From: Actinomycetes bacterium
Lineage (GTDB): Bacteria > Actinomycetota > Acidimicrobiia > Acidimicrobiales > Bog-793
Assembly (NCBI GenBank): GCA_021796455.1
Contig: JAKACA010000003.1
Location: 1 to 49,880, forward strand
DNA: 49,880 bases
Direction of reading: 5' to 3'
In this document: in pieces, positions 17,322 through 44,600 of the stretch
How the letters are laid out: the number at the start of each line of letters is the position of its first letter
How positions within the stretch are numbered: position 1 is the first letter of the stretch
Notes under the pieces: model-generated
Databases searched by the model: none
The model's input: the letters and a program-made list of their open reading frames with translations, nothing else
What the model was told of the DNA's origin: nothing
Position numbers and translations under genes: made by a program

Positions 17322-17347
17322 TATGCTCACTGTGAGCCCAGAGTGGT
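17322..17347 (+). promoter_or_regulatory. Putative -10 (TATGCT), palindrome GCTCAC-T-GTGAGC and motif GCCCAGAGTGGT upstream of the giant cyclase
   Basis: TATGCT 17322-17327, palindrome 17325-17337, 12-mer 17336-17347; function inferred. Confidence 0.4.
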
Positions 17348-17353
17348 CGGGTC

Positions 17354-20300
17354 GTGGCCACTTTCCTACAACCTTGGATGGGTGAACAGGTGCCTACCGA
17401 GGCGTCAAGGATCGCGATACCGGGATTTGATGTCGTAGAGGAGCTCGGCCGCGGAGCGACGACGGCGGTGTACCGCGCGGTTCGCCAAGGTCAGGACTTC
17501 GCCGTCAAGATGCAGCAGCTGAAGGGACCCGACGACCCCGCCCGGCTCTACTTCCGCCGCGAGGCGGCCATCCTTGCCGCGATCCGCCACCCCTGCCTGG
17601 GCAAGGTCTTCGAGGTGGGCGACGACGGCAGGATCTGCTATCTCGTAATGGAGCTCATCGGCGGGCGGACCCTCGGGCAGGCAATCGCAGAAGAAGGCGC
17701 CCTTCCTGAGCTTCGAGTGCTGTCGATAGCTGCCGACGTAGCTGCCGCCCTGGACGTCGCTCACCGCGTAGGGCTCGTGCATAGGGACGTCAGCCCGCGC
17801 AACGTCGTGCTCAGAGACGACGGGCGGGCCGTTCTCATCGACTTCGGCCTCGCGACGCACACCGGCACCCGCCAGCCAGAAGATGCCGTAGTCGGCACGG
17901 TGCTCTACAGCGCTCCCGAGCAGACAGGAATGGCACGCCGCCCGGTCGACAGGCGGTCCGACCTGTACTCCCTCGGCGCCGTGCTCTTCGAGTCTGTGAC
18001 GGGCCGTCCGCCATTCAGGGCGTCCGACGCCGGCGAGGTCGTCCGTATGCACGCCATGCTCACCGCTCCCGACGCGCGCTCGGTCGAGCCGAACGTCTCT
18101 GTCCAGCTTTCCCGGATCATCGCGCGGCTCCTCGCGAAAGATCCAGACGACAGGTACCAGGACGCCAGCTCGCTCCACTCGGACCTGGAGGCGCTCCGGA
18201 GCGGGAACCTCTCCGAAGATGCCCCGCTCGGCAAGTCGGTTGTCGGGCGGGCGTCGACGAGCATGACCCTCGTCGGTCGCAATGCCGAACTGGCCGCGCT
18301 GCTCGAGGTGGCCAACGACACCCGGGCCTCGAGAACCGGCGCCTCGGTCATCATCGAGTCGGAGCCCGGCGGGGGCAAGACACGCCTCGTCTCCGAACTG
18401 GCTCTGATCGCGCGCGGCAACGGGATGACCGTCATCGAGACCAACATCGGCCTCGACCATCCCGGGCCACTTGGACCACTAGCTCTGGCGCTCGGGCGTC
18501 ACCTGGCGGAGCTCGAGACCCGCGATCCCGACATGCTCGCGCACCTGCGCCGAGAGATGGGCATTGACAGAGCTGGAGCGGCGGTCTCGCTCCTCGGCTT
18601 GTCGCGCGAGCTCGACCGATTCCTCTCCGCGCCGAGCGAGCGCGGATCGGACGGCGGCTTCCACGACTTCGCGGTGATCGAGGCCGCCCACCTGGTCATG
18701 TCCGTCGCGACAGCCTCACCGGGTGGGATGCTTCTCGTTGTCGACAACGCCCACTTGGCTGACGACGCCACCCATCGCGTGCTCGCGTACCTGGCACCCG
18801 AGCTGGACCGTCTACCCCTTGTGATCGTCCTCACCGCTCGCAGTGATCCCGCGCACGGGTTCGCGCTCGGGCGACTCCGCTCCGAGATGGGCGAAGCGGT
18901 GCGGCGTAGGATCGAGCTCCCACCCCTCAGCGACGCGCAGATCGAAACCGTCCTTTCATGGCAGCTGGGTGGCGACGCCCTCGATCCGAGCCTCGCGAAC
19001 GAGATAACTATTCGCGCCAACGGCAATCCGTCCGCGGCGGTTGAGTACCTCCGGGCCGCGCTCGAGGCCGGAGTGCTGCGGCCTTATTGGGGGACGTTCT
19101 CCGTCGATGCCGAGGCGCTCGCGGGCCTCGACCTGCCCACCGACGTCCGTGGCTTGGCATTGCGCCGCCTCGACAGCCTCCGCCCTGCGACCCGCTGGCT
19201 GCTCACCGAGGCCGCCCTCGTCGGATCAAGCTTCGGTGTCGGCCTGCTGGCGACGATCACGAACTGGTCGACAGCGGACCTCTACCTTGCCCTCGGAGAG
19301 GCGGCAGGCGCTCGGGTGATCGAGCAGCAGGACAGCGACCGCTACGTGTTCCTCCATGACGGCGTACGAGATGTCCTGCTGCGTTCAATCGACAAGAAGG
19401 CGGCGAGGCGTGCCCACGAGGTGCTCGCGCGGGCGTTGCAGGAGACGGGCGAGAGCCGGCCGGAGATCGTCTACGAGATCGCGCGTCACTACGCGCTCGG
19501 TGAGGTCGAATCCGACCCGGTCCGGTCTTTTCAGGCAAACCATCGTGCCGCCCGCCTGGCGCTCGCGGCACAAGCCGACGACGACGCGCTCGAGTTCCTG
19601 GCCGCAGCCGAGGCCATCACCGTCGAGCACCGGCTCCCCGCCACGAGTGCCTTCGAGACGGACTACGGCACAGCTCTGGCCCGCAGCGGCAGGGTCGATC
19701 TTGCCCTTGGGCACTACGAGAAGGCCCTGCGCCTGGAACGAGAGCCGATAGGCCGCTCACGAATCCGCGAGCACCTCGCACATGTCTACCTTGCCCAGTC
19801 AAACGGGACGGCGAGCCTCGAGCACGCCCGCGAAGGGCTCTCAGAGCTTGGAAGATCCCTGCCGCAAAGTGGAGCCCTCCTGGCCGTCTCCACGCTCTGG
19901 CGCAGCTTGCTCGGTCTCCTGGTCGGGGTGACACGAGTCGGATTCGGGCGGGCAAAGCGTGCCAAGAGAGAAAAGCTCCGCCTCGAGTGCCGCCTCCTCG
20001 AGGTGGCCGGCGACGCGGCGGACCTGGAGCACCGTGCGATTCTCGCCGTCGGGATCGCCCTAAGAGCACTGGCGCCGGCGAACCGTCTCGGGCACTCTCG
20101 TGAGTTCGTCGGCGTCTACGCCCACCTGGGCTCGATCCTTGCCCAGGTGAGGCTCGTGGGCTTCGCCCGTGTCGTCGCGCGGCACACGACGCGGGTCGCC
20201 CAAAAGACCAACGACCAGGGGACTATCGTCCATGCAAAGCTGCTCGAGGCAATCAGCCTCGAGCTGCAGGGGTGTTCCGTCGAATCCCAGCAGCTGCTGG

Positions 20301-22747
20301 CCGAGGTGCTCCGCCACGAGGCGCGCTGGTTGCAGCCGGGAGAGTACCTAAGTGGCGTGCTCGCCGCATGCGTCGGACTGGGCCTTCGAGGCAGGGTACT
20401 CGAGCAGGTAGCGTGGGTCGAGGAGGCGACCTGGCACTCCGGCAGGGCCACGCGCCTCGACAACGGAGCAGTCAACGGGCTCGACTTCGTCGGGATCGCC
20501 ATAGCTGGTCTCCTGGAACAGCCGACGCTCGGCCTCGAGCGGATAGCGCGCGTAAACGAGCGGTTCGCCGCCGCGGAGCCATCCCGGATAGCGGTTGCCG
20601 GCTATCAGGTCGCGCTTGCAACGTTTCATTTCGGCCTGAACGAGCTGGGCCAGCCGTTCGAGGAAGCTGTCGCGCGTTTTCGGGCTCAGCGCCTCAGGCC
20701 GTGGAACTGTCCCTACAACCTCTCGTCTTTTTGGATAGTGCAGGCCCTTGCTCGGCTGTCGCAGCTGCTGAGCTGCACTGAGGAGGACCGCAGAGCATGT
20801 ATCCGCTCGGCCCGAAGAGCAGCCCGTGAGCTTCGCCTGGCATCTCGCACCCCGCTCATGCGGGCGTACTACTTCGGTGCCCGTACCGGCCTTCTCGTGG
20901 CAAAGGGTCGCTTCAAAGCGGCGCTGCGCTCGAGCTCGAGGGGACAGGCACTGCTCGTCGGCCTCGATGCTCCGGGAGCCGAGATGGCAATCCAGATGGC
21001 CCGGAGTCGTGCCCTTGACGGCGCGGGCTTCCACGAGGAGGCAGAGCGAATGGCGGTGGCGGCCGCCCGACTGTCGGAAGACCTCGGCCTCACGGCATTC
21101 GTCCGCTGGACTCAGCCTCCGGTCTCGGAACGCTCGCGAAGAAACCCTTTCGGCCACTCCCTGCGCCAGTCGATGAGCGGGGTCCCCTTGCGGGCGTCGG
21201 GGTTCCATGGGGCCGGGGGCGTCCGAGTCGCGAGCCGCGCAGCTCGTCAGCTCGAGGCCCTCCTGCAAGTGGGAGCGGCCGCAGCGCGCGTGCTCGACCC
21301 CGATGAGCTCGCTCGGCTCGCCCTCGACGAGACGGTCCGGATCCTTAGTGCCGAGCGGGCGCTCCTGTTCTTGACGAACGAGAACTCTGGCCTCGTGCGC
21401 CCGCACCTCGGGCGCGACGCCGCCGGAAACGACCTCAAGGAGCTGACCGGCTTCTCCTCGACCGTCGTCGACCGTGTCGTAGCCACCCGCGAACCGGTCG
21501 TGCTCACCGGAACTGAGGAGGGCGCTGCGCTCGGCTCGGAAAGCGCGGTGACCCACGGGCTGCGGTCGATCCTCGTCGCGCCCCTTCAGATCGAGGATCG
21601 CCTGCTCGGGGTCGTCTACCTCGACAGCAGGCTCGCGAAGGGTATCTTCACGAGAGACGACGTCGAGATCCTGAGCGCAATCACCTCGAACGTGGCGTTT
21701 GCTCTCGAGACAGCCCGGCTGGCCGAGGTGGAGATGTCGGTGGCGAGCGAGCGCCGCCAGCGCGAGGTCGCAGAGCTGCTCCGCGACTCGATGAGCGAGA
21801 TCGGCCAGAGCCTCGAGCCCCGTGGCGTTCTGCGATCGATACTGCACAACTGCGTCTCGGCGCTCAGTGCCGATGCGGGCGCCATCCTGCTCGCCGACGG
21901 TGAGCGTCTCGAGATCGCCTCGGCGGTGGGCGGCGGCGTGTCGCTCCCACCCGAGGGCTATGACCTTGCCCGGACCGATCAGCCCGAGATCGCCGAGGCC
22001 CTCCGCTCCCGCAAGCCCCTCTCTGTCGCGAGCGTCATCAGCGAGCGGAACTCACCGCTGTTCGGGCTCCTCGGGCGGGCCGGGTCGTTCATCGTCGCGC
22101 CACTTGTCGTGCGCGACCAGGCAGTCGGTGCCCTCGCGATAATCTCGCGGCGGCCCAACGCCTTCGGTCAGACTCAGACCGAGGTGGCCGCGGCTCTTGC
22201 CAACCAAGGCGTCGTCGCATACGAGAATGCACAGCTCTTCGCCCGTGTCCAGACCCTCGCGCAACGAGACGAGCTTTCTGGCGTGGCCAACCGACGGTAC
22301 TTCTTCGAGATGGCAGGGCGGAGCTTCCGGGACGCCCGCCAGGCGGGCACGCCCCTGTCGGCGATGATGCTCGACATCGACCACTTCAAAGATGTCAACG
22401 ACCGCTACGGCCACGCGTCGGGAGACGACGTGATCCGCGTCGTGGCACAGCGCGTGGCAAAGGTCATCGGGTCAGGTGACACGGTGGGTCGCTACGGCGG
22501 CGAGGAGTTTGCCCTTGTCGTGCAAGCCCCACTCGAGCAGGCGCACGCGCTCGCCGAGCGCCTGCGCCAGGCCATCAGCGAAACCCCGATCTCTACCGCC
22601 TCTGGTCCGATAGAGGTCACCGCATCGGTGGGCGTGGCCGAGATGGACGGGCGCGATCTCGACCTGGGCCGCCTCCTGCAACGGACCGATGCCGCTCTTT
22701 ACGAGGCCAAGCGGGCGGGGCGGGACCAGGTGGTCACAGCGTTTTAG
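17354..22747 (+). CDS. Ser/Thr kinase - STAND (AAA_16-like) ATPase - TPR-like - GAF - GAF - GGDEF diguanylate cyclase
   Basis: Kinase: LGRG, AVK, HRDVSPRN, DFG, APE, DLYSLG. Walker A SEPGGGKT (18359-18382), Walker B LLVVD. Two GAF-like segments (~21290-21720, ~21800-22240). DELSGVANRR, DIDHFKDVNDRYGH and GGEEF (22496-22510). Alternative start ATG 17378. Confidence 0.88.
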   Translation: MATFLQPWMGEQVPTEASRIAIPGFDVVEELGRGATTAVYRAVRQGQDFAVKMQQLKGPDDPARLYFRREAAILAAIRHPCLGKVFEVGDDGRICYLVMELIGGRTLGQAIAEEGALPELRVLSIAADVAAALDVAHRVGLVHRDVSPRNVVLRDDGRAVLIDFGLATHTGTRQPEDAVVGTVLYSAPEQTGMARRPVDRRSDLYSLGAVLFESVTGRPPFRASDAGEVVRMHAMLTAPDARSVEPNVSVQLSRIIARLLAKDPDDRYQDASSLHSDLEALRSGNLSEDAPLGKSVVGRASTSMTLVGRNAELAALLEVANDTRASRTGASVIIESEPGGGKTRLVSELALIARGNGMTVIETNIGLDHPGPLGPLALALGRHLAELETRDPDMLAHLRREMGIDRAGAAVSLLGLSRELDRFLSAPSERGSDGGFHDFAVIEAAHLVMSVATASPGGMLLVVDNAHLADDATHRVLAYLAPELDRLPLVIVLTARSDPAHGFALGRLRSEMGEAVRRRIELPPLSDAQIETVLSWQLGGDALDPSLANEITIRANGNPSAAVEYLRAALEAGVLRPYWGTFSVDAEALAGLDLPTDVRGLALRRLDSLRPATRWLLTEAALVGSSFGVGLLATITNWSTADLYLALGEAAGARVIEQQDSDRYVFLHDGVRDVLLRSIDKKAARRAHEVLARALQETGESRPEIVYEIARHYALGEVESDPVRSFQANHRAARLALAAQADDDALEFLAAAEAITVEHRLPATSAFETDYGTALARSGRVDLALGHYEKALRLEREPIGRSRIREHLAHVYLAQSNGTASLEHAREGLSELGRSLPQSGALLAVSTLWRSLLGLLVGVTRVGFGRAKRAKREKLRLECRLLEVAGDAADLEHRAILAVGIALRALAPANRLGHSREFVGVYAHLGSILAQVRLVGFARVVARHTTRVAQKTNDQGTIVHAKLLEAISLELQGCSVESQQLLAEVLRHEARWLQPGEYLSGVLAACVGLGLRGRVLEQVAWVEEATWHSGRATRLDNGAVNGLDFVGIAIAGLLEQPTLGLERIARVNERFAAAEPSRIAVAGYQVALATFHFGLNELGQPFEEAVARFRAQRLRPWNCPYNLSSFWIVQALARLSQLLSCTEEDRRACIRSARRAARELRLASRTPLMRAYYFGARTGLLVAKGRFKAALRSSSRGQALLVGLDAPGAEMAIQMARSRALDGAGFHEEAERMAVAAARLSEDLGLTAFVRWTQPPVSERSRRNPFGHSLRQSMSGVPLRASGFHGAGGVRVASRAARQLEALLQVGAAAARVLDPDELARLALDETVRILSAERALLFLTNENSGLVRPHLGRDAAGNDLKELTGFSSTVVDRVVATREPVVLTGTEEGAALGSESAVTHGLRSILVAPLQIEDRLLGVVYLDSRLAKGIFTRDDVEILSAITSNVAFALETARLAEVEMSVASERRQREVAELLRDSMSEIGQSLEPRGVLRSILHNCVSALSADAGAILLADGERLEIASAVGGGVSLPPEGYDLARTDQPEIAEALRSRKPLSVASVISERNSPLFGLLGRAGSFIVAPLVVRDQAVGALAIISRRPNAFGQTQTEVAAALANQGVVAYENAQLFARVQTLAQRDELSGVANRRYFFEMAGRSFRDARQAGTPLSAMMLDIDHFKDVNDRYGHASGDDVIRVVAQRVAKVIGSGDTVGRYGGEEFALVVQAPLEQAHALAERLRQAISETPISTASGPIEVTASVGVAEMDGRDLDLGRLLQRTDAALYEAKRAGRDQVVTAF

Positions 22748-22795
22748 AGCTGCGCGGCCGGGTATTTCGGCCACCTCCTCCTGGAATCGAGAAGA

Positions 22796-22805
22796 ATTAG
22801 CTAAT
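22796..22805. promoter_or_regulatory. AT-rich perfect palindrome ATTAGCTAAT between the two cyclase genes
   Basis: Read directly; lies 14 nt upstream of the GTG at 22820. Confidence 0.3.
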
Positions 22806-22819
22806 CTCCGCGCGCTGCT

Positions 22820-23626
22820 GTGCCGATAGTTGGAAACGTGCAACCAGGCATCGATGTCGGTGGCGTCGTGGACAGCCTCTCAGATGCAGCCAACTGCGAA
22901 GATCCCCGAGCCGAGCCGCTCCATGTCGTGGTGCCCGGATGGAGCACCGGCGAGAGCTCGAGCGATCACACGGCCCGGCTGCTCGGACTATCGGCCGATG
23001 AGGTCACGCGGCTCTCACAGGTCGATCTGCATCGAGCAGGCTGGGCCGAGGTAGTCCGCATTGCCGTCACCGACCCGCTCACCCGCCTTCCCAACCGCGC
23101 TCTTCTCCATGACCGTTTGAGACAGGCGATCGCTCGCCTTGCTCACGAGCCGACCGAGCTGGCCGTCTTGTTCATCGACGTGGACCGTTTCAAGCTCGTG
23201 AACGACACGCTCGGACACGGCGCCGGAGACGACCTCCTCGTCGCCATAGCCAACCGGCTCTCGCAGACGCTGCGGATGACGGACACGATCGCCCGCTTCG
23301 GAGGAGACGAGTTCGTCGTGCTGGCAGAGGACGTAAGCGACGCGGCAACGGTCCTAGCTCTCGGTCAACGCCTCATCGAAGCTGTCGCGGAGCCGCTCGA
23401 GATCGCAAGTCACACCATGACCCCGAGTATCAGTGTGGGCATCACGATCGCCTTCCGGTCCTATGAGGAGCCCGCCGAGCTGATCCACCTCGCCGACCTG
23501 GCGATGTACCAAGCCAAGGATGCCGGCGGCGGTCGCTGCATGCTGGCCGAGCCGCGGGCCGACTCTCCTCATCGAAGCCAAGATGCCGCCCTTCGGCAGT
23601 GCGATCCCTGGAGCGCCGCAGGATGA
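22820..23626 (+). CDS. GGDEF diguanylate cyclase with a short unrecognised N-terminus
   Basis: TDPLTRLPNR, LFIDVDRFKLVNDTLGHGAGD, I-site RMTD (23273-23284), GGDEF (23300-23314), ADLAMYQAK. Confidence 0.88.
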   Translation: MPIVGNVQPGIDVGGVVDSLSDAANCEDPRAEPLHVVVPGWSTGESSSDHTARLLGLSADEVTRLSQVDLHRAGWAEVVRIAVTDPLTRLPNRALLHDRLRQAIARLAHEPTELAVLFIDVDRFKLVNDTLGHGAGDDLLVAIANRLSQTLRMTDTIARFGGDEFVVLAEDVSDAATVLALGQRLIEAVAEPLEIASHTMTPSISVGITIAFRSYEEPAELIHLADLAMYQAKDAGGGRCMLAEPRADSPHRSQDAALRQCDPWSAAG

Positions 23627-28256: not shown

Positions 28257-29168
28257 GTGAATGACTACATCTCGATACCACCGCTGCTACGCGACGCATC
28301 TGCTCTCATATACGTCGACGACCTGGAGACGCCGGAAGTGCGTGCCGAGGACTCTCGACACCTGTGGACGGTGCTTCGTCTGCGGCCAGGAGAGACCGTC
28401 GTCGTGTCCGACGGGCAGGGGCGCTTCCGCGGCTGCACTGTGGCCGCCACGTCCATCGGCAAGGCCCCGGAAAAGCCCGTAGCACCCGCGCAGACCGCGC
28501 AGCGCGCGCGGCGTAGGGGACAAGGCGGCGCTCTCGTCCTCCTGCCCGCCACCGAGGTGATGGAGGGAAGGAGAGCCGTGCCGGCTCTGACAGTGGGTTT
28601 CTCTCTCGCCAAGGGAGACAGGAATGACTGGGCTGTCGCCAAGCTTTCCGAGCTCGGGGTGGACCGCATCGTTCCGCTCATGTGCGAGCGCACGGCCGTC
28701 CGCTTGAGCCCTGAGCAGGCGCTCCACCAGCATGAGCGTCTTCGACGGATCGCGCGGGAAGCCTCAATGCAGGCTCGCCGCATCTGGCTCCCCGAGGTGC
28801 TGGACGTGGTCGCCCTCGCGCACGCGCCGTCAAGGCTGGGTAGTGACGCGCGAGCAGGGGTCGGGGGCGGCGGTGTCGGGGAGGTCGGGGGCGGCGGCAT
28901 CGGGGGGGTCGGGGGCGGCGGCATCGCCTTGGCCGAGCCGGGCGGGCCCGGTCTGTCGCTCGCCACCCCGACGGTGCTGGTCGGCCCGGAGGGTGGCTTT
29001 GCCCCCGGCGAGCTCGCCATGGGCTTGCCCGTAGTTGGCCTCGGTGCCACAGTCCTTCGGATCGAAACGGCCGCCATCGCCGCTGGCACGATCCTGTCGG
29101 CCCTGAGGTCCGGCTTGCTGTCGGCGACCTCAGCGGTCGACGACCCGCGGCGGTGCCGCCCGCGGTGA
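28257..29168 (+). CDS. rsmE: 16S rRNA m3U1498 methyltransferase
   Basis: HLWTVLRL, KLSELGVDRIVP, EASMQARR, VGPEGGF, LGATVLRIETAA. Confidence 0.92.
   Translation: MNDYISIPPLLRDASALIYVDDLETPEVRAEDSRHLWTVLRLRPGETVVVSDGQGRFRGCTVAATSIGKAPEKPVAPAQTAQRARRRGQGGALVLLPATEVMEGRRAVPALTVGFSLAKGDRNDWAVAKLSELGVDRIVPLMCERTAVRLSPEQALHQHERLRRIAREASMQARRIWLPEVLDVVALAHAPSRLGSDARAGVGGGGVGEVGGGGIGGVGGGGIALAEPGGPGLSLATPTVLVGPEGGFAPGELAMGLPVVGLGATVLRIETAAIAAGTILSALRSGLLSATSAVDDPRRCRPR
28857..28928 (+). repeat. In-frame 24-bp repeat x3 (GVGGGGVG/EVGGGGIG/GVGGGGIA) inside rsmE
   Basis: Units at 28857, 28881 and 28905. Confidence 0.85.
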
Positions 29169-29177
29169 CGCTCGACC

Positions 29178-29208
29178 GCTCAGAGTAGTAACCTCGAACG
29201 CGTAAAGT
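29178..29208 (+). promoter_or_regulatory. Putative bldD promoter with motif GCTCAGAGTAGT and -10 TAAAGT
   Basis: 12-mer at 29178-29189; TAACCT at 29189-29194; TAAAGT at 29203-29208. Confidence 0.4.
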
Positions 29209-29268
29209 GGTAATAGGAACGCGGGCGGCGGTCAGGAGCTACAGCGGGCGCCGAGCGTCACCCAGCCC

Positions 29269-29296: not shown

Positions 29297-29310
29297 CAAC
29301 AAGGGGACAC

Positions 29311-29895
29311 ATGCGCAGTGCTGTAGTTAGGATCGCAAACAACGAGCTGACCGACGAGGACGTGGCAGGCTACGCACAAGCCGTCGGCCTCCGCCTGCGC
29401 GCGGTCCGCCGGCAGAAGCGGCTCTCCTTGCAGGCAGTCGAGCGCGCGTCCGCAGAGGAGTTCAAAGCCTCGGTGCTCGGCGCCTACGAGAGAGGCGAGA
29501 GGACCATCTCCGTGCCGAGGCTGCAGCGCCTGGCGCAGATCTACTCCGTGCCGGTCGACCAGCTCCTACCTGCTGACATGTCGCAGCCGCTCGGCAGGGC
29601 TGGTACCGCCTCGGGCCCGTCGCGCTCTGGTGCTGCCGGAGAACGACCGGTGAGGAAGATCACTATCGACCTCGTTCGCCTCAACGAAGTCACAGGCCCA
29701 GAACGCGATCTGCTTCGCCATTTCCTTGCCTCTGTACAGGTGCAGCGCCAGGACTTCAATGGCAAGGTGATCACTATAAGAGAAGCCGACCTTCGCGTGA
29801 TGGCGTCGATGTTCGGCCGTAGCGTCGAGGCGCTCGTCAACCGCCTCGAGGAGCTCAGCCTGATCCACCACGCCACCAGGAACGGGCAGAGCTGA
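29311..29895 (+). CDS. bldD: BldD-family XRE transcriptional regulator with c-di-GMP-binding C-terminal domain
   Basis: YAQAVGLRLRAVRRQKRLSLQAVE...GAYERGERTISVPRLQRLAQIYSVPVDQLLP and KITIDL...QRQDFNGKVITIREADLR align with Streptomyces BldD as I recall it (KLVLDL...QRGDYNGKVLSIRQDDLR); AAGGGG RBS before ATG 29311. Confidence 0.88.
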   Translation: MRSAVVRIANNELTDEDVAGYAQAVGLRLRAVRRQKRLSLQAVERASAEEFKASVLGAYERGERTISVPRLQRLAQIYSVPVDQLLPADMSQPLGRAGTASGPSRSGAAGERPVRKITIDLVRLNEVTGPERDLLRHFLASVQVQRQDFNGKVITIREADLRVMASMFGRSVEALVNRLEELSLIHHATRNGQS

Positions 29896-31091
29896 CAAGC
29901 TCCCTCGCTGGAGCCGACGATCTCGGTCCCAGCACCGCCGAGCTCGCCCAAGCAGGCCTGCCGCCGATATCGCCCGGCGTCTACGTCCACGTTCCATTCT
30001 GTGCGAGCCGGTGCGACTACTGCGCGTTCACTACCTTCACCGACCGCCACCACCTGGCATCGAGCTACGTCGATGCATGCCTGAGAGACTACGAGGCCCA
30101 TCGAGAGGCCTGGCCGGCACGCCCTGGCACCATCTTCATCGGCGGGGGCACTCCGAGCCAGCTCTCCGGACGAGACTTGAGACGACTCGTCTCGGCTCTG
30201 GATGCTTTCCCGGACGCCGAGGTCACCGTCGAGGCCAACCCCGAGGATGTGACGCCTGCATGGGTCGCAACATGTCGCGCAGCGGGCGTCAACCGGATCT
30301 CGCTCGGCGTGCAGTCGCTTGATCCGGCTGTGCTCAAAGGCCTGGGACGGCAGCACGACCCGGCGGCTGTGGCTGTGGCCGTCAGGAACATCGCAGCCGC
30401 CGGCATCGCGAGCTACAGCGTTGATCTCATCTACGGAGGCGCGGGCGAGACCAACGAGAGCTGGACGAGGACCCTCGAGGGAGTGCAACAACTCGATCCC
30501 CGTCCTGGTCACGTCAGCGCTTACGGGCTCACTGTCGAAGCCGGTACGCCGCTTGCCCTTGACCAGAGTCGTCACCCCGACGACGACACCCAGGCCGCGC
30601 GCTACGAGATTGCCGAGCAGATGCTCTCGGAACACGGATACAGCTGGTACGAGATCTCGAACTGGTCGCTTCCCGGCCAGGAATCACGCCACAACCTCAA
30701 CTACTGGATGGAGGGCGACTACCTGGGACTCGGCTGTGCTGCCCATAGCCACCGGGCCGGACGGCGCTGGTGGAACGTGCGCACCCCCGAGCGCTATATC
30801 GATCTGATCACAAGGAAAAGCTCCCCGGAGTCAGTCTCCGAAACCCTCTCAGTGTCCCAACGCCGCCTCGAATCCCTGGAGCTGGCGGTGCGAACCCGCC
30901 TCGGCGTTCCTCGCTCTGCGCTCGCATCGGCTCTCGGGTCGGAGCCTGCTGTCACCGACCTGGTCGCGATCGACCCGAGATCGGGACGGTTGGTGCTCAC
31001 AGTGCGCGGCAGGCTGCTCGCCAACGAGGTCGCGTGCCGCTTACGCCCAGATGCTCCAGAAGTGGCCGAGATGACCTCCCCTGCCCGCTAG
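29892..31091 (+). CDS. hemW: Radical SAM heme chaperone HemW, probable CTG start
   Basis: VYVHVPFCASRCDYC (CxxxCxxC at 30000-30023), FIGGGTPS, TVEANP, NRISLGVQS, YEISN and HNLNYW are all in frame with the ORF-track ORF at 30177; no ATG/GTG/TTG upstream of the Cys motif. Confidence 0.85.
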   Translation: MTSSLAGADDLGPSTAELAQAGLPPISPGVYVHVPFCASRCDYCAFTTFTDRHHLASSYVDACLRDYEAHREAWPARPGTIFIGGGTPSQLSGRDLRRLVSALDAFPDAEVTVEANPEDVTPAWVATCRAAGVNRISLGVQSLDPAVLKGLGRQHDPAAVAVAVRNIAAAGIASYSVDLIYGGAGETNESWTRTLEGVQQLDPRPGHVSAYGLTVEAGTPLALDQSRHPDDDTQAARYEIAEQMLSEHGYSWYEISNWSLPGQESRHNLNYWMEGDYLGLGCAAHSHRAGRRWWNVRTPERYIDLITRKSSPESVSETLSVSQRRLESLELAVRTRLGVPRSALASALGSEPAVTDLVAIDPRSGRLVLTVRGRLLANEVACRLRPDAPEVAEMTSPAR

Positions 31092-31092
31092 G

Positions 31093-31329
31093 ATGGCCGG
31101 CATGGCCGAGCCGATCACCTGGATGAGCACGCCTGCGGTTGCTGAGTACCTCGGCGTGAACACGCGCACCGTGTACCGCCTGATCGACGAGGGTGAGCTG
31201 CCGGCATACAAGTTCGGCAGGGTTATACGCCTCCAAGAGTGCGACGTCATCGCGTTCGTCGAGCGGAGCCGCATAGCCCCCGGGAGCCTGGAGCACCTCT
31301 ATCCCGAGCCCGTGCGCTCCGAGGGCTGA
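31093..31329 (+). CDS. Small excisionase-like/MerR-type HTH DNA-binding protein (HTH_17, the family that includes BldC)
   Basis: MSTPAVAEYLGVNTRTVYRLIDEGELPAYKFGRVIRL. Confidence 0.85.
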   Translation: MAGMAEPITWMSTPAVAEYLGVNTRTVYRLIDEGELPAYKFGRVIRLQECDVIAFVERSRIAPGSLEHLYPEPVRSEG

Positions 31330-41658: not shown

Positions 41659-44600
41659 CGGACCTGCTCCGTGACGAGCTTGGTGTAATCGGCCATCCGA
41701 GTGTCGGTGCGTGCTCGTTCCCACAGATCCGCCCGATCCGTAGTGCACAGGGAGTCGAAGTCGCAGTAGCGACAGTTCCGATACGTTGAACCATGTTCCG
41801 CAGCGCCGGGCCGGGGCGGGAAGCAGCCCGCCTCGATCGTCGAGACCAGGGTGGTCAGCACACCCCCAAGAGCGCTCTCCAGCTCCTCGTCGAGCTCGAC
41901 TTGTATCACGGCATAGTCGGCGTCCGACTGCATGAATCGGTACTCGGCCCGTACCGGCTCACGACCCGTGACCTCTGCCGAGAGAACCTCTCTAGCCACT
42001 TTTGCATAGAGCGGAAGCTGCAAGTGACTACCACGCCCCAGGGGCTCTCTCGAGATATCGCTGTAACCCTCTTTGCCCCCGCTCTTGTAGTCGACGACTA
42101 CGAGCCTGCCGCTATCGGTCAGGTCGACGCGGTCTATTCGGCCGCGAAACCTCACTGATCGGCCCGCAATTTGTTCAACTGCCGGTCGACCTTCTCGGCC
42201 AAAGTCAAGCTCGAGACGCAGTGGCATACGCCCCGCCGTGATGCAGTGCGAGACGTCGCTCTCGACGTACCGCTCCAGATCCGCGAGTATGCGACCGCGC
42301 TCGCCGGCCCAGAAGAGGGCCTTGCCTGTGCGGCCTAGCTGCTCGAGCTGCTCGAACTGCACCATCGCGAGCTTTCCGAGGCGTTCCCGGGAGCTGTCGT
42401 CGAATGGCACCAGCGAGCCGTGCTCGATCGCGAGAGCAAAGAAACCCTCGAGCACGCGGTGCATGAGCGTGCCGCGCTCTCGAGGATCGAGCGTGATCAG
42501 TAGCTCGGGCGCTTCGAGCTTGCTCGCGCCGAGCCTGTCGTCTAGGAAGAAACGGAACGGACAGGCTGCAAAGCTCTCGAGTCCGCTGACAGAGAACACC
42601 TGGTCGCGGACCTCGCCAGCGACGTCGGTGGACCCGCCGGCTCCAGAGGGCCGGACCGCTCCAGAGGCTCCAGGTGGCCCGGCCGCCGGCACATAGCCGG
42701 CAAACGGGTTGAGACCGTTCGCGAGGCGCCCAGCCACTGACGAGCGCCGGCGCCGGTAGTCGGCATCTACTGTCTCCAACCAGCCGGGCTTCTGCTGTCT
42801 GCCAGCTGCCAGAAGCCACGCGAGCTCGAGGTCGCTTTGATCGCTTGCGGGGCTGGAGCCTTCCACCACACGCTGGATCGAGGCGGTGAACGAGGGCACC
42901 TCGACTTCCTCGCCCGGGCAGAGATCGGCATTCCAACGAGACGGGTACGCTGCCCTCCCGGCCTGCACGTCGATGCGGGCGAACGATGCCCGTGTCCTGG
43001 CAGCAGCCGAAACGGCCCAGGCCAGATGGCGCCTCGCCAGCTCATCTGCGCTCTCGCGGACGGCGAGTCCGGCTATACCGAGTCGCTCGGCCGGGGAGAG
43101 AAGAGGGTCGTCGACGCTTCGCGACGGCAGCTCGCCCTCCCTGCATCCAAGTATCAGCAGAAGGTCGCAGCTGGCTCCGGCCACTGACCTGAGCGTCCCG
43201 ATCACTGGTCCGACGCCGTAGCGACCGTGGTCCCCGGACGGTCGCTCCAGAGCGACCCCTACTGCGAGGGAGAATCGGCGCAGACGCTCAGCCTGTGCCA
43301 GACCATCCAGCGGATCCACGCTGTCGAGCTGCTCGAGGTCGCCCAAAGCCTCGGTGAGCACCCGCCGGTCATCGTCAGGTTCCAGAACCTCCTCGAGGGC
43401 CTCAGCTGCCCAGGCGCAAAGCTCACGCCATGTCCGTGCCGCAGCAGCCGCGGAGGTCAAATGATGTAGACGCTCCACCAGCTCGAGCAGGTCGCCGGCT
43501 ACGAGCGAGCTCTCGTTCGCCGGCTGGGCCTCGGCATGGGTCGTGCGGGCCATGTAGGAGCGCAGCCTGCCACGCCACTGCTCGATGCCACTCACCACAC
43601 CGGAAAGCCGCGAGCACCGATCCCAGGCCGCAACGGGTAGCGCTCCAAGGGCCTCCACAGAAGCTAGAGCCCGCGTCAAGCCATGACCGCAGCGGACAGG
43701 CCCGCTCGACAACCAGGCAAAGACCTGCCTACGGTCGAGCTCGAGCCCTGCCGGCACCGGGCTCGAGAGAGCCACCAGCCCGAGGAGAAGCCGCCCGTGA
43801 GGAGCACCACCCAGTGGTCGCGTAGGACCACCGCTGTAGGGAATCCCCGCCACTCTCAGTTGCTCGGTGACGCGGAGCCCATAGCTCGCGGAGCGCTCTC
43901 CATCGGGGTAGGTGACTATGCAGCGCCCGAGATCTCCCCCTGCCTGCGCGTGAGCGACAAGCCGACGAACGGCCTCTCGCACCTCGACATCCGCGTCCGG
44001 TGCGGAGAGCAAGGCCTCAAGGACCGCAGGTGCGAAAGTGCCACCCGCCACCGGCTCCGACAACTCGGTGCCGTCGATAGCCAGATCCGAGCTCCCCGTC
44101 TCGCTCTCGCCAAAGCAGTCCTCCAGCTGTCGCAGGAACCGAACCGAGGACCGATCCGCCAGCTCGTCGCGTGTCCTTCCCACAAGGGCAACGACGTCGA
44201 GTCGGCGGGCGAGATGCCCGAGCAGATCGATCTCCATCGGGCGCAGAGGATCTGGAAGGTAGGCAATCACGCTCCCAAGCTCGCCGAGGTCCCCTGCCGC
44301 CTCGGGGTTGCCAAGCCACGTGCAAGCGGCCTCCACCAGTCGGGCATCGTCATAGAACCCAGGCTCGAGCAGCTCTCGCATGCGAAGCGTCAGCGCTACC
44401 ACGGCGGCGGCGCGCGCGCTCGACGCGCGAAGGTGACCCAGCTCGGTCTCGCCAACCCAGCGCAGATCGGTGTAGGTGGCAGCCAGGCTCGCTTCTGTGG
44501 TCGGATGGCTCGCGACCGGCGCAAAGGGACCGGGGATCTCGCTCAGGGCCACGCGCGCCGCCGCGCGCAGGGCGACCTGGCTGAGCGGCCGGCGCCCGCC

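What the first reader, a model, noticed from the sequence alone, without database searches (positions are those of the whole stretch)
29311..29895. BldD homolog with intact RxD-X8-RxxD signature inserted in the lepA-hrcA-dnaJ-rsmE-phoH-era locus
Seen: RQD (29746-29754), exactly 8 residues (FNGKVITI), then READ (29779-29790), plus the upstream Lys of KITIDL. This matches the Streptomyces RGD-X8-RQDD motif as I recall it. An extended Gly/Ser/Ala linker separates the domains. Established: BldD is a master developmental repressor in filamentous actinobacteria and sits in a different neighbourhood in Streptomyces. Inference: a functional c-di-GMP effector in a lineage where its regulon is unknown, here coupled to hemW.
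Basis: partly seen in the sequence, partly recalled or inferred. Interest (0 to 1): 0.72.

Follow-up and report, generated by a model that had tools for sequence, protein, structure and literature searches.

The report
BldD-family c-di-GMP regulator, ancient locus resident
The gene is a real relative of the Streptomyces regulator BldD that keeps every residue known to grip the signalling molecule c-di-GMP. It is not a recent insertion: it is the normal, ancient occupant of this locus across the class Acidimicrobiia, so it is a new member of a known kind.

Summary
Window 29311-29895 (+) encodes a 194-aa protein with an XRE helix-turn-helix domain, a disordered linker of about 25 residues, and a BldD-like C-terminal domain. 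All nine published c-di-GMP contact residues are identical or conservatively replaced. The genome, an Acidimicrobiales MAG from mine drainage, has 19 GGDEF and 10 EAL domain matches.

The interpretation needs correcting on three points:
- **Not an insertion.** The gene sits between hrcA-dnaJ-rsmE and hemW or phoH-ybeY in most Acidimicrobiia genomes that carry it, in Nitriliruptoria, and in other deep actinobacterial lineages.
- **Not canonical BldD.** The locus-resident copies form their own clan, separate from Streptomyces/Micromonospora BldD (pyrR-bldD-nusB locus). The window protein scores 133.9 against the 250-bit NCBIfam BldD cut-off.
- **hemW linkage is local.** It is specific to the order Acidimicrobiales.

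A BldD-box-like palindrome (yCAC-N5-GTGr) lies upstream of 72 of 124 relatives. The window itself has only degenerate copies.

A bldD orthologue in Acidimicrobium was already published (Chandra & Chater 2014). Binding of c-di-GMP, dimerisation and the regulon remain untested.

The parts
29311..29895 (+). BldD-family regulator gene (194 aa; P0001)
   Evidence: Open frame. PF21179 plus HTH_31/HTH_3. NF050110 at 133.9 bits, below the 250 cut-off. PDB BldD N- and C-terminal domains. 42% identical to Streptomyces BldD, E = 3e-37. Single copy in the genome.
29383..29565 (+). XRE-type helix-turn-helix DNA-binding domain (residues 25-85)
   Evidence: HTH_31 and HTH_3 matches. Residues 20-87 align to 2EWT, the BldD DNA-binding domain, at E = 8e-16.
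29575..29646 (+). Disordered Gly/Ser/Ala-rich linker (residues 89-112)
   Evidence: AF2 pLDDT below 50 for residues 89-112. 16-residue gap relative to Streptomyces BldD. Variable in length among homologues.
29656..29856 (+). BldD-like C-terminal domain (residues 116-182), the presumed c-di-GMP-binding module
   Evidence: PF21179 at E = 7.8e-17. The AF2 C-terminal domain has block-mean pLDDT of 67-92. The top 15 Foldseek PDB hits are all BldD C-terminal domain structures, target-normalised TM 0.73-0.82.
29656..29658 (+). K116, equivalent to Lys84 of S. venezuelae BldD (phosphate contact)
   Evidence: Aligned. The role of Lys84 is from PMC4151990. At least 90% conserved among close homologues but variable across the class.
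29746..29754 (+). Motif 1, RQD (R146, D148), equivalent to RGD 114-116
   Evidence: R146 and D148 are invariant.
29779..29790 (+). Motif 2, READ (R157, D160), equivalent to RQDD 125-128
   Evidence: R157 and D160 are invariant. R162 (nt 29794-29796) is equivalent to Arg130.
29165..29214 (+). Conserved non-coding block between rsmE and the BldD-like gene. It holds two degenerate BldD-box-like elements: 29175-29189 (ACCGCTCAGAGTAGT) and 29197-29211 (AACGCGTAAAGTGGT)
   Evidence: The block is nearly invariant in the window, L198, L201 and L202, while the sequence downstream of it diverges. PWM scores are only 3.2 and 6.0 bits because the left half reads CGC instead of CAC. Relatives carry perfect CAC-N5-GTG cores at similar distances.
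29301..29307 (+). Shine-Dalgarno-like AAGGGGA, 3 nt before the ATG at 29311
   Evidence: Conserved in all four aligned relatives.
29892..31091 (+). hemW (radical-SAM haem chaperone), probably starting at a CTG that overlaps the BldD-like TGA (cTGA)
   Evidence: TIGR00539 at 263 bits against a cut-off of 205. The frame is open from 29823 with no ATG, GTG or TTG before 30177, which lies after the CxxxCxxC motif. PGAP calls the equivalent overlapping start in L198. The start codon is inferred.
28257..29168 (+). rsmE, the conserved upstream neighbour
   Evidence: RsmE family TIGR00046. Upstream neighbour in 67 of 80 named loci.
17354..23626 (+). Two GGDEF genes (1797-aa kinase-AAA_16-GAF-GGDEF and a 268-aa GGDEF): candidate local sources of c-di-GMP. 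This is context only, not shown to be linked

Best explanation
The gene encodes a BldD-family transcription factor belonging to a distinct, ancient subfamily. This subfamily resides between hrcA-dnaJ-rsmE and hemW or phoH-ybeY in Acidimicrobiia and other deep-branching Actinomycetota.

The most likely mechanism follows Streptomyces BldD. At high c-di-GMP, two C-terminal domains are bridged by a c-di-GMP tetramer held by R146/D148 (motif 1) and R157/D160 (motif 2), helped by K116, N150, T155 and R162. This brings the two XRE helix-turn-helix domains together on a palindrome of the type yCAC-N5-GTGr. When c-di-GMP falls, the dimer falls apart and repression ends. In most relatives such a palindrome lies upstream of the gene itself, so autoregulation is likely. 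In this genome the gene probably heads a transcript that runs into hemW.

Shown: domain architecture, residue conservation, fold, synteny, phylogenetic position, presence of diguanylate cyclase (GGDEF) and phosphodiesterase (EAL) domain genes, and enrichment of the palindrome upstream of relatives.

Inferred: c-di-GMP binding, 4:2 stoichiometry, ligand-dependent dimerisation, repression, co-transcription with hemW, and the regulon.
For: - Architecture and fold: PF21179 plus an XRE HTH domain. PDB BldD N-terminal domain at E = 8e-16 and C-terminal domain at E = 1e-9. The AF2 C-terminal domain matches only BldD C-terminal domain structures, TM 0.73-0.82.
- Ligand contacts: the published contacts are Lys84, Ile110, Arg114, Asp116, Asn118, Ser123, Arg125, Asp128 and Arg130 (PMC4151990). 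They correspond to K116, V142, R146, D148, N150, T155, R157, D160 and R162.
- Purifying selection: R146, D148, N150, R157 and D160 are invariant from this protein to Streptomyces and in 63 close homologues. RxD-X8-RxxD is present in 80 of 80 named loci.
- Signal available: 19 GGDEF and 10 EAL matches in the genome.
- DNA site: CAC-N5-GTG lies within 250 nt upstream in 72 of 124 loci. Dinucleotide shuffles give 11.5 +/- 2.9, and 7.1% of genes in this genome with a non-coding upstream region have it. The consensus yCACGCwssGTGr resembles the boxes found upstream of Streptomyces-type bldD in the same analysis, for example TCACGCTGCGTAA.
- Ancient, retained gene: class-wide presence in 91 of 151 genomes and 67 of 82 genera, with conserved synteny.
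Against: - No binding, dimerisation or expression data exist. Metatranscriptomes from the same study have no contig on the locus.
- The window's own upstream region lacks a perfect core palindrome. Its two candidate sites read CGC instead of CAC and score only 3.2 and 6.0 bits.
- Motif 1 has Gln where the Streptomyces protein has Gly. The linker is about twice as long, which could alter how the DNA-binding domains pair.
- The protein is only 42% identical to Streptomyces BldD and falls below the NCBIfam equivalog cut-off.
- A PWM scan of this genome gave no coherent regulon. Of the 19 GGDEF matches, 16 had an upstream region that could be scanned, and only one of these has a good site.
Confidence: 0.7

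Rival explanations
1. It is a BldD-like repressor whose C-terminal domain binds c-di-GMP in a different way. For example, it might bind only one intercalated dimer at motif 2, bind another purine nucleotide, or be a constitutive dimer. In that case the switch logic would differ from Streptomyces BldD.
For: Motif 1 is RQD rather than RGD throughout Acidimicrobiia. In Streptomyces, motif 1 is the weaker, second-filled site, and its loop (residues 115-120) is flexible (PMC5499655). The linker is 16 residues longer. The subfamily is phylogenetically separate from canonical BldD.
Against: R and D of motif 1 are invariant, as are N150 and R162, which serve the tetramer in Streptomyces. The published signature is RXD with X free. 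The predicted C-terminal fold superposes on the ligand-bound structures at 2.2-3.6 A.
Confidence: 0.17
2. It is an ordinary local XRE regulator of the hemW/phoH operon. Its C-terminal domain would serve only as a protein-protein or dimerisation module, and the Arg/Asp pattern would be kept for structural reasons, with no second-messenger input.
For: Conserved linkage to housekeeping genes rather than developmental genes. No developmental theme among predicted sites in the genome.
Against: Every ligand-contacting side chain is conserved while the rest of the C-terminal domain is only about 33-35% identical to Streptomyces. In the solved structures the two C-terminal domains do not touch each other without the ligand (PMC4151990). 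The genome carries a large c-di-GMP toolkit.
Confidence: 0.08
3. The gene is decaying or not expressed, a relic of an ancestral regulator.
For: No RNA evidence is available. The autoregulatory box is degenerate in this genome.
Against: The frame is intact. The Shine-Dalgarno-like sequence and start codon are conserved. Close homologues are 59-94% identical with the signature residues invariant. The gene is single-copy and widely retained.
Confidence: 0.03

Closest known systems
Streptomyces BldD (S. coelicolor SCO1489 / S. venezuelae; PDB 2EWT, 4OAZ, 4OAY, 5KHD, 5TZD)
   Same: Same two-domain architecture and same C-terminal fold. RxD-X8-RxxD and all accessory c-di-GMP contacts are kept. The N-terminal domain aligns to 2EWT at E = 8e-16. 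Relatives carry a similar palindromic box upstream of the gene. The genome encodes GGDEF and EAL proteins.
   Different: Only 42% identical and below the NCBIfam equivalog cut-off (133.9 versus 250). Motif 1 is RQD rather than RGD. The linker is 16 residues longer and there is an N-terminal extension of about 19 residues. The locus differs: rsmE and hemW here, against pyrR and nusB in Streptomyces. The two lie on opposite sides of a supported tree branch. The host is an uncultured Acidimicrobiales MAG whose morphology and life cycle are unknown, so any developmental role is unknown.
bldD orthologue of Acidimicrobium ferrooxidans noted by Chandra & Chater 2014 (PMC4255298)
   Same: Same class. 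That paper already concluded that bldD was present in very early actinobacteria. The window gene is very probably a member of the same lineage of genes.
   Different: In the passages I read, that paper does not mention the class-wide position in the hrcA-dnaJ-rsmE/phoH locus, the separate clan, the motif conservation or the upstream palindrome. It says bldD orthologues 'always show local synteny', which does not hold between this subfamily and the pyrR-nusB location.
Extra BldD-like copies in Nitriliruptoria (Egicoccus halophilus type)
   Same: Same family and same signature. These genomes also carry one copy in the dnaJ-phoH locus that groups with the window protein.
   Different: The additional copies lie elsewhere in the genome and group with the canonical BldD side of the tree. 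This shows that the two kinds can coexist in one genome.
RsiG-(c-di-GMP)-WhiG switch
   Same: It is another Streptomyces-type c-di-GMP effector reported in Acidimicrobiales (3 of 4 species; PMC8325347). Streptomyces-style c-di-GMP signalling in this order therefore has precedent.
   Different: It is an unrelated protein family with a different mechanism (an anti-sigma factor armed by a c-di-GMP dimer). I did not look for it in this genome.

Membership tests
BldD-like family (XRE HTH + BldD_C c-di-GMP effector) | N-terminal XRE-type HTH domain related to the BldD DNA-binding domain | tested here: met
   HTH_31 at 29.8 bits and HTH_3 at 26.6 bits, both above their cut-offs. 2EWT at E = 8e-16 over residues 20-87.
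BldD-like family (XRE HTH + BldD_C c-di-GMP effector) | C-terminal BldD-like domain (Pfam PF21179) above the gathering score | tested here: met
   61.3 bits against a cut-off of 27. Also recovered by six-frame search of the genome.
BldD-like family (XRE HTH + BldD_C c-di-GMP effector) | Bipartite RXD-X8-RXXD signature at the homologous position | tested here: met
   R146-Q-D148, then eight residues, then R157-E-A-D160, aligned to RGD...RQDD. The signature is defined in PMC4151990.
BldD-like family (XRE HTH + BldD_C c-di-GMP effector) | Accessory c-di-GMP contacts (Lys84, Ile110, Asn118, Ser123, Arg130) | tested here: met
   K116, V142, N150, T155 and R162: identical or conservative.
BldD-like family (XRE HTH + BldD_C c-di-GMP effector) | C-terminal domain fold as in the solved structures | tested here: met
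   AF2 model, C-terminal domain block-mean pLDDT 67-92. Foldseek top 15 hits are all BldD C-terminal domains, target-normalised TM 0.73-0.82, rmsd 2.2-3.6 A. The N-terminal domain was poorly modelled.
BldD-like family (XRE HTH + BldD_C c-di-GMP effector) | Binds tetrameric c-di-GMP (4 per dimer) and dimerises only with the ligand | not testable with these tools
   Needs DRaCALA or ITC, SEC-MALS, or a co-crystal structure.
BldD-like family (XRE HTH + BldD_C c-di-GMP effector) | Host genome encodes diguanylate cyclases and phosphodiesterases | tested here: met
   19 GGDEF and 10 EAL matches, two of the GGDEF genes in the window.
BldD-like family (XRE HTH + BldD_C c-di-GMP effector) | Palindromic BldD box (TNAC-N5-GTNA) upstream of its own gene (autoregulation) | tested here: inconclusive
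   The strict box is absent from the window's upstream region, and the window has one match in total, fewer than chance. The relaxed core CAC-N5-GTG is present upstream in 72 of 124 relatives against about 11.5 expected. The window has only one- and two-mismatch versions in a conserved block.
Canonical BldD (NCBIfam NF050110 equivalog; developmental master repressor of sporulating actinomycetes) | Score at or above the curated equivalog cut-off of 250 bits | tested here: not met
   133.9 bits. Only 13 of 401 genomes sampled across the phylum pass. Streptomyces scores 307.5.
Canonical BldD (NCBIfam NF050110 equivalog; developmental master repressor of sporulating actinomycetes) | Conserved pyrR-bldD-nusB neighbourhood | tested here: not met
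   The four above-cut-off loci examined (L098-L101, including Streptomyces and Micromonospora) have pyrC-pyrB-pyrR and nusB beside bldD. In the window's genome, nusB and pepQ are on contig C249 without a bldD-like gene.
Canonical BldD (NCBIfam NF050110 equivalog; developmental master repressor of sporulating actinomycetes) | Groups with Streptomyces and Micromonospora BldD in a family tree | tested here: not met
   The window groups with all the dnaJ-phoH-locus copies (support 99/96) and apart from the canonical side. The root is unknown, so pro-orthology to canonical BldD is not excluded.
Canonical BldD (NCBIfam NF050110 equivalog; developmental master repressor of sporulating actinomycetes) | Represses sporulation or developmental genes (bld, whi, cdg genes) | not testable with these tools
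   The organism is uncultured. A single-genome site scan gave no such theme.

The most novel reading that the evidence does not exclude
The copy in the hrcA-dnaJ-rsmE/phoH-ybeY locus may be the ancestral form of BldD, with the canonical developmental BldD of Streptomyces descending from a relocated duplicate. The coexistence of both kinds in Nitriliruptoria fits this. In its ancestral role, the BldD-(c-di-GMP) switch would autoregulate and gate transcription of the downstream housekeeping genes (hemW, HIT, phoH, ybeY, era). That would tie c-di-GMP level to ribosome maturation and growth state rather than to sporulation.
Probability: 0.2. Interest if true: 0.6.

Novelty: new member of a known kind. 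Interest (0 to 1): 0.38.

Why it matters
BldD bound to tetrameric c-di-GMP is usually described as a device of sporulating, filamentous actinomycetes. Here the complete ligand-binding signature and a BldD-box-like site are conserved across Acidimicrobiia and other deep lineages, in a fixed position beside chaperone and ribosome-maturation genes. If binding is confirmed, the switch is much older than Streptomyces development. Its original targets could then be found by comparing the many available genomes or by testing a cultured relative. For the window itself, the result is a correct annotation rather than a surprise.

Tried and rejected
- **Strict Streptomyces BldD box (TNAC-N5-GTNA).** None upstream of the window gene. 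There is one in the whole window, at 41959, against 3.8 expected. It is useful only as a positive control in Streptomyces-type loci.
- **Blind search for gapped palindromes** shared by 8 or more class loci. It found nothing. The signal appeared only with the relaxed core.
- **Regulon prediction.** A PWM scan of the MAG showed that strong sites are 2-3 times enriched in intergenic DNA. The downstream genes (transposases, membrane proteins, metabolic enzymes) show no theme, and GGDEF genes mostly lack sites. I rejected this as uninformative without cross-species filtering.
- **Shared 12-bp motif.** It overlaps my degenerate box 1.
- **Is the 78-aa HTH gene (31093-31329) BldC?** It is HTH_17/excisionase family and has no PDB match to BldC at E up to 1. 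I do not call it BldC.
- **RNA evidence.** Three metatranscriptomes of the same study have no contig on the locus.
- **Naming the other syntenic families.** Exact look-ups gave only 'Actinomycetota' or 'Actinomycetes bacterium' for the f42, f46 and f79 families. They gave Egicoccus halophilus for one Nitriliruptoria copy and confirmed Streptomyces and Micromonospora BldD.
- **AF2 model.** The N-terminal domain was poorly modelled (overall pLDDT 66), so only the C-terminal domain was used.

Full report
**1.

Window 29311-29895 (+) is an open frame of 194 codons.
- Pfam finds an XRE helix-turn-helix domain (HTH_31 and HTH_3, residues 25-85).
- Pfam also finds the BldD-like C-terminal domain PF21179 (residues 116-182, 61.3 bits, cut-off 27).
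- Against PDB sequences, residues 20-87 match the BldD DNA-binding domain 2EWT (E = 8e-16).
- Residues 112-181 match the BldD C-terminal domain in 4OAZ, 5KHD, 4OAY, 5TZD and 2MC4 (E about 1e-9).
- QRQDFNGKVITIREADLR lies over QRGDYNGKVLSIRQDDLR, and RKITIDL lies over PKLVLDL.

Identity to a Streptomyces BldD is 42% over 159 residues (E = 3e-37), with a 16-residue longer linker.

**2. The ligand-binding site is fully conserved**

Tschowri et al. 2014 (PMC4151990) list the c-di-GMP contacts of S. venezuelae BldD:
- Arg114 and Asp116 (motif 1);
- Arg125 and Asp128 (motif 2);
- Lys84 and Arg130 (phosphate contacts);
- Ile110, Asn118 and Ser123.

The window protein has R146, D148, R157, D160, K116, R162, V142, N150 and T155 at these positions.

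R146, D148, N150, R157 and D160 are invariant in a 13-sequence alignment spanning Acidimicrobiia to Streptomyces and Micromonospora. They are also invariant in 63 close homologues. All 80 named Acidimicrobiales homologues keep RxD-X8-RxxD, nearly always as RQD.

An AF2 model built on the homologue alignment is poor for the N-terminal domain. Its C-terminal domain is confident (block-mean pLDDT 67-92). The 15 best Foldseek PDB matches are all BldD C-terminal domain structures (target-normalised TM 0.73-0.82).

**3. The organism and its c-di-GMP toolkit**

Source names of the closest proteins and loci say Acidimicrobiales or Acidimicrobiaceae MAGs. The DNA is found in mine-drainage and sediment metagenomes.

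The 3.57-Mb assembly has one BldD-like gene, 19 GGDEF matches and 10 EAL matches. Two GGDEF genes are in the window: a 1797-aa kinase-AAA_16-GAF-GGDEF protein and a 268-aa protein.

**4. It is not an insertion but a conserved resident of the locus**

PF21179 occurs in 91 of 151 sampled genomes of the class and in 67 of 82 genera.

Among 40 class-level loci, 37 place the gene directly after hrcA-dnaJ(-rsmE).
- Within the window's order, the downstream neighbour is mostly hemW.
- In other orders, hemW sits between lepA and hrcA, and the downstream neighbour is phoH-ybeY.

In 80 named loci from the species-representative collection, rsmE is the upstream neighbour in 67. The downstream neighbour is hemW in 28, the small HTH_17 gene in 14 and phoH in 9. 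In most of the remaining loci no query gene was found downstream.

The same position is used outside the class, in unnamed MAG families and in Nitriliruptoria.

Streptomyces-type bldD lies between pyrC-pyrB-pyrR and nusB. I verified this with NCBIfam on a Streptomyces locus and found the same arrangement in all four above-cut-off loci examined. It is not a local event in this genome.

**5. Relationship to canonical BldD**

NCBIfam's BldD equivalog model scores the window protein 133.9 bits against a cut-off of 250. Across 401 genomes of the phylum, 173 have a match but only 13 pass the cut-off.

Maximum-likelihood trees put all locus-resident copies (Acidimicrobiia, MAG families, Nitriliruptoria) in one clan with 99/96 support. 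Streptomyces BldD, Micromonospora BldD and the extra Nitriliruptoria copies fall on the other side. Names were confirmed by exact look-up.

Nitriliruptoria genomes carry one syntenic copy plus two to four others, so the two kinds coexist in one genome. The tree is unrooted. The duplication may have come before or after the Acidimicrobiia split, and I cannot decide which.

Chandra & Chater 2014 already reported a convincing bldD orthologue in Acidimicrobium and inferred an early actinobacterial origin (PMC4255298). I found no paper describing the locus or the subfamily.

**6. DNA site**

The published box TNAC-N5-GTNA is found upstream of bldD in the Streptomyces-type loci, for example TCACGCTGCGTAA and TCACGGTGCGTGA. 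It is found in almost none of the Acidimicrobiia loci.

Relaxing the outer positions reveals a core CAC-N5-GTG within 250 nt upstream in 72 of 124 loci. Three controls give far lower rates:
- dinucleotide shuffles give 11.5 +/- 2.9, maximum 21;
- 6.7% of control segments from the same loci have it;
- 7.1% of genes in this genome with a non-coding upstream region have it.

The instances give the consensus yCACGCwssGTGr, for example CCACGCTGAGTGA. This is close to the Streptomyces boxes, so DNA specificity and autoregulation appear to be conserved. The loci are related to each other, so the counts are not fully independent.

In the window itself there is no perfect core. A 50-nt block (29165-29214) is nearly invariant in the window and three relatives whose proteins are 83-94% identical. 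It contains CCGCTCAGAGTAG and ACGCGTAAAGTGG, each with CGC in place of CAC (PWM 3.2 and 6.0 bits). Autoregulation in this particular genome is therefore uncertain.

**7. Link to hemW**

The hemW frame is open from 29823. It has no ATG, GTG or TTG until 30177, which lies beyond the CxxxCxxC motif. In a relative whose BldD-like protein is 94% identical, PGAP calls a CTG that overlaps the BldD-like stop codon (cTGA); this corresponds to window 29892. No terminator-like site lies between the genes. Co-transcription and coupling are plausible but inferred. In a relative with 83% protein identity, the called hemW start lies 57 nt after the end of the BldD-like gene.

**8. Verdict**

The gene is a BldD-family regulator that very probably senses c-di-GMP in the Streptomyces manner (confidence 0.7). 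It belongs to an old, syntenic subfamily that is not canonical BldD. As a finding about this window it is a new member of a known kind. The wider pattern is of moderate interest to people who study actinobacterial signalling: a class-wide signature, a conserved box, a fixed locus and two clans. Binding, dimerisation, expression and targets are all untested.

Noticed in passing
window 29823-30177: hemW has no canonical start codon before its essential CxxxCxxC motif. The likely start is a CTG at 29892 that overlaps the BldD-like TGA, as PGAP annotates in a relative whose BldD-like protein is 94% identical (L198).
   Followed up: partly
window 17354-22747 and 22820-23626: A 1797-aa Ser/Thr kinase-AAA_16-GAF-GAF-GGDEF protein and a 268-aa GGDEF protein lie 6-12 kb upstream of the BldD-like gene. 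GGDEF genes also lie within a few kb of the BldD-like gene in several relatives (L043, L066, L137, L146, L166, L177, L184, L192, L194), but not consistently.
   Followed up: partly
window 31093-31329: A 78-aa HTH_17/excisionase-family gene follows hemW here. It directly follows the BldD-like gene in 14 of 80 Acidimicrobiales loci. It has no detectable PDB match to BldC.
   Followed up: partly
L204-L213, L105-L107, L111 (Nitriliruptoria genomes G199, G213, G503, G239, G157): Three of these genomes (G199, G213, G503) were shown to carry one BldD-like copy in the dnaJ-phoH locus. All carry two to four further copies elsewhere, some in tandem, and those examined have RxD-X8-RxxD. This is an expanded family of putative c-di-GMP-dependent regulators.
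   Followed up: partly
L062, L063 (genome G012): The two BldD-like copies of this Acidimicrobiia genome have lost motif 1 (RGS and RRE in place of RxD). They sit on very long branches and are possible ligand-independent derivatives.
   Followed up: no
genome contigs C302:4641-5675 and C166:17702-18736: Two paralogous membrane proteins of about 344 aa each have a strong yCAC-N5-GTGr palindrome upstream (16.0 and 12.8 bits).
   Followed up: no
window 17336-17347 and 29178-29189: The 12-bp motif GCYCAGAGTRGT occurs upstream of both the giant cyclase and the BldD-like gene. Two or more matches arise in 30 of 100 shuffles, so on its own this is not significant.
   Followed up: yes
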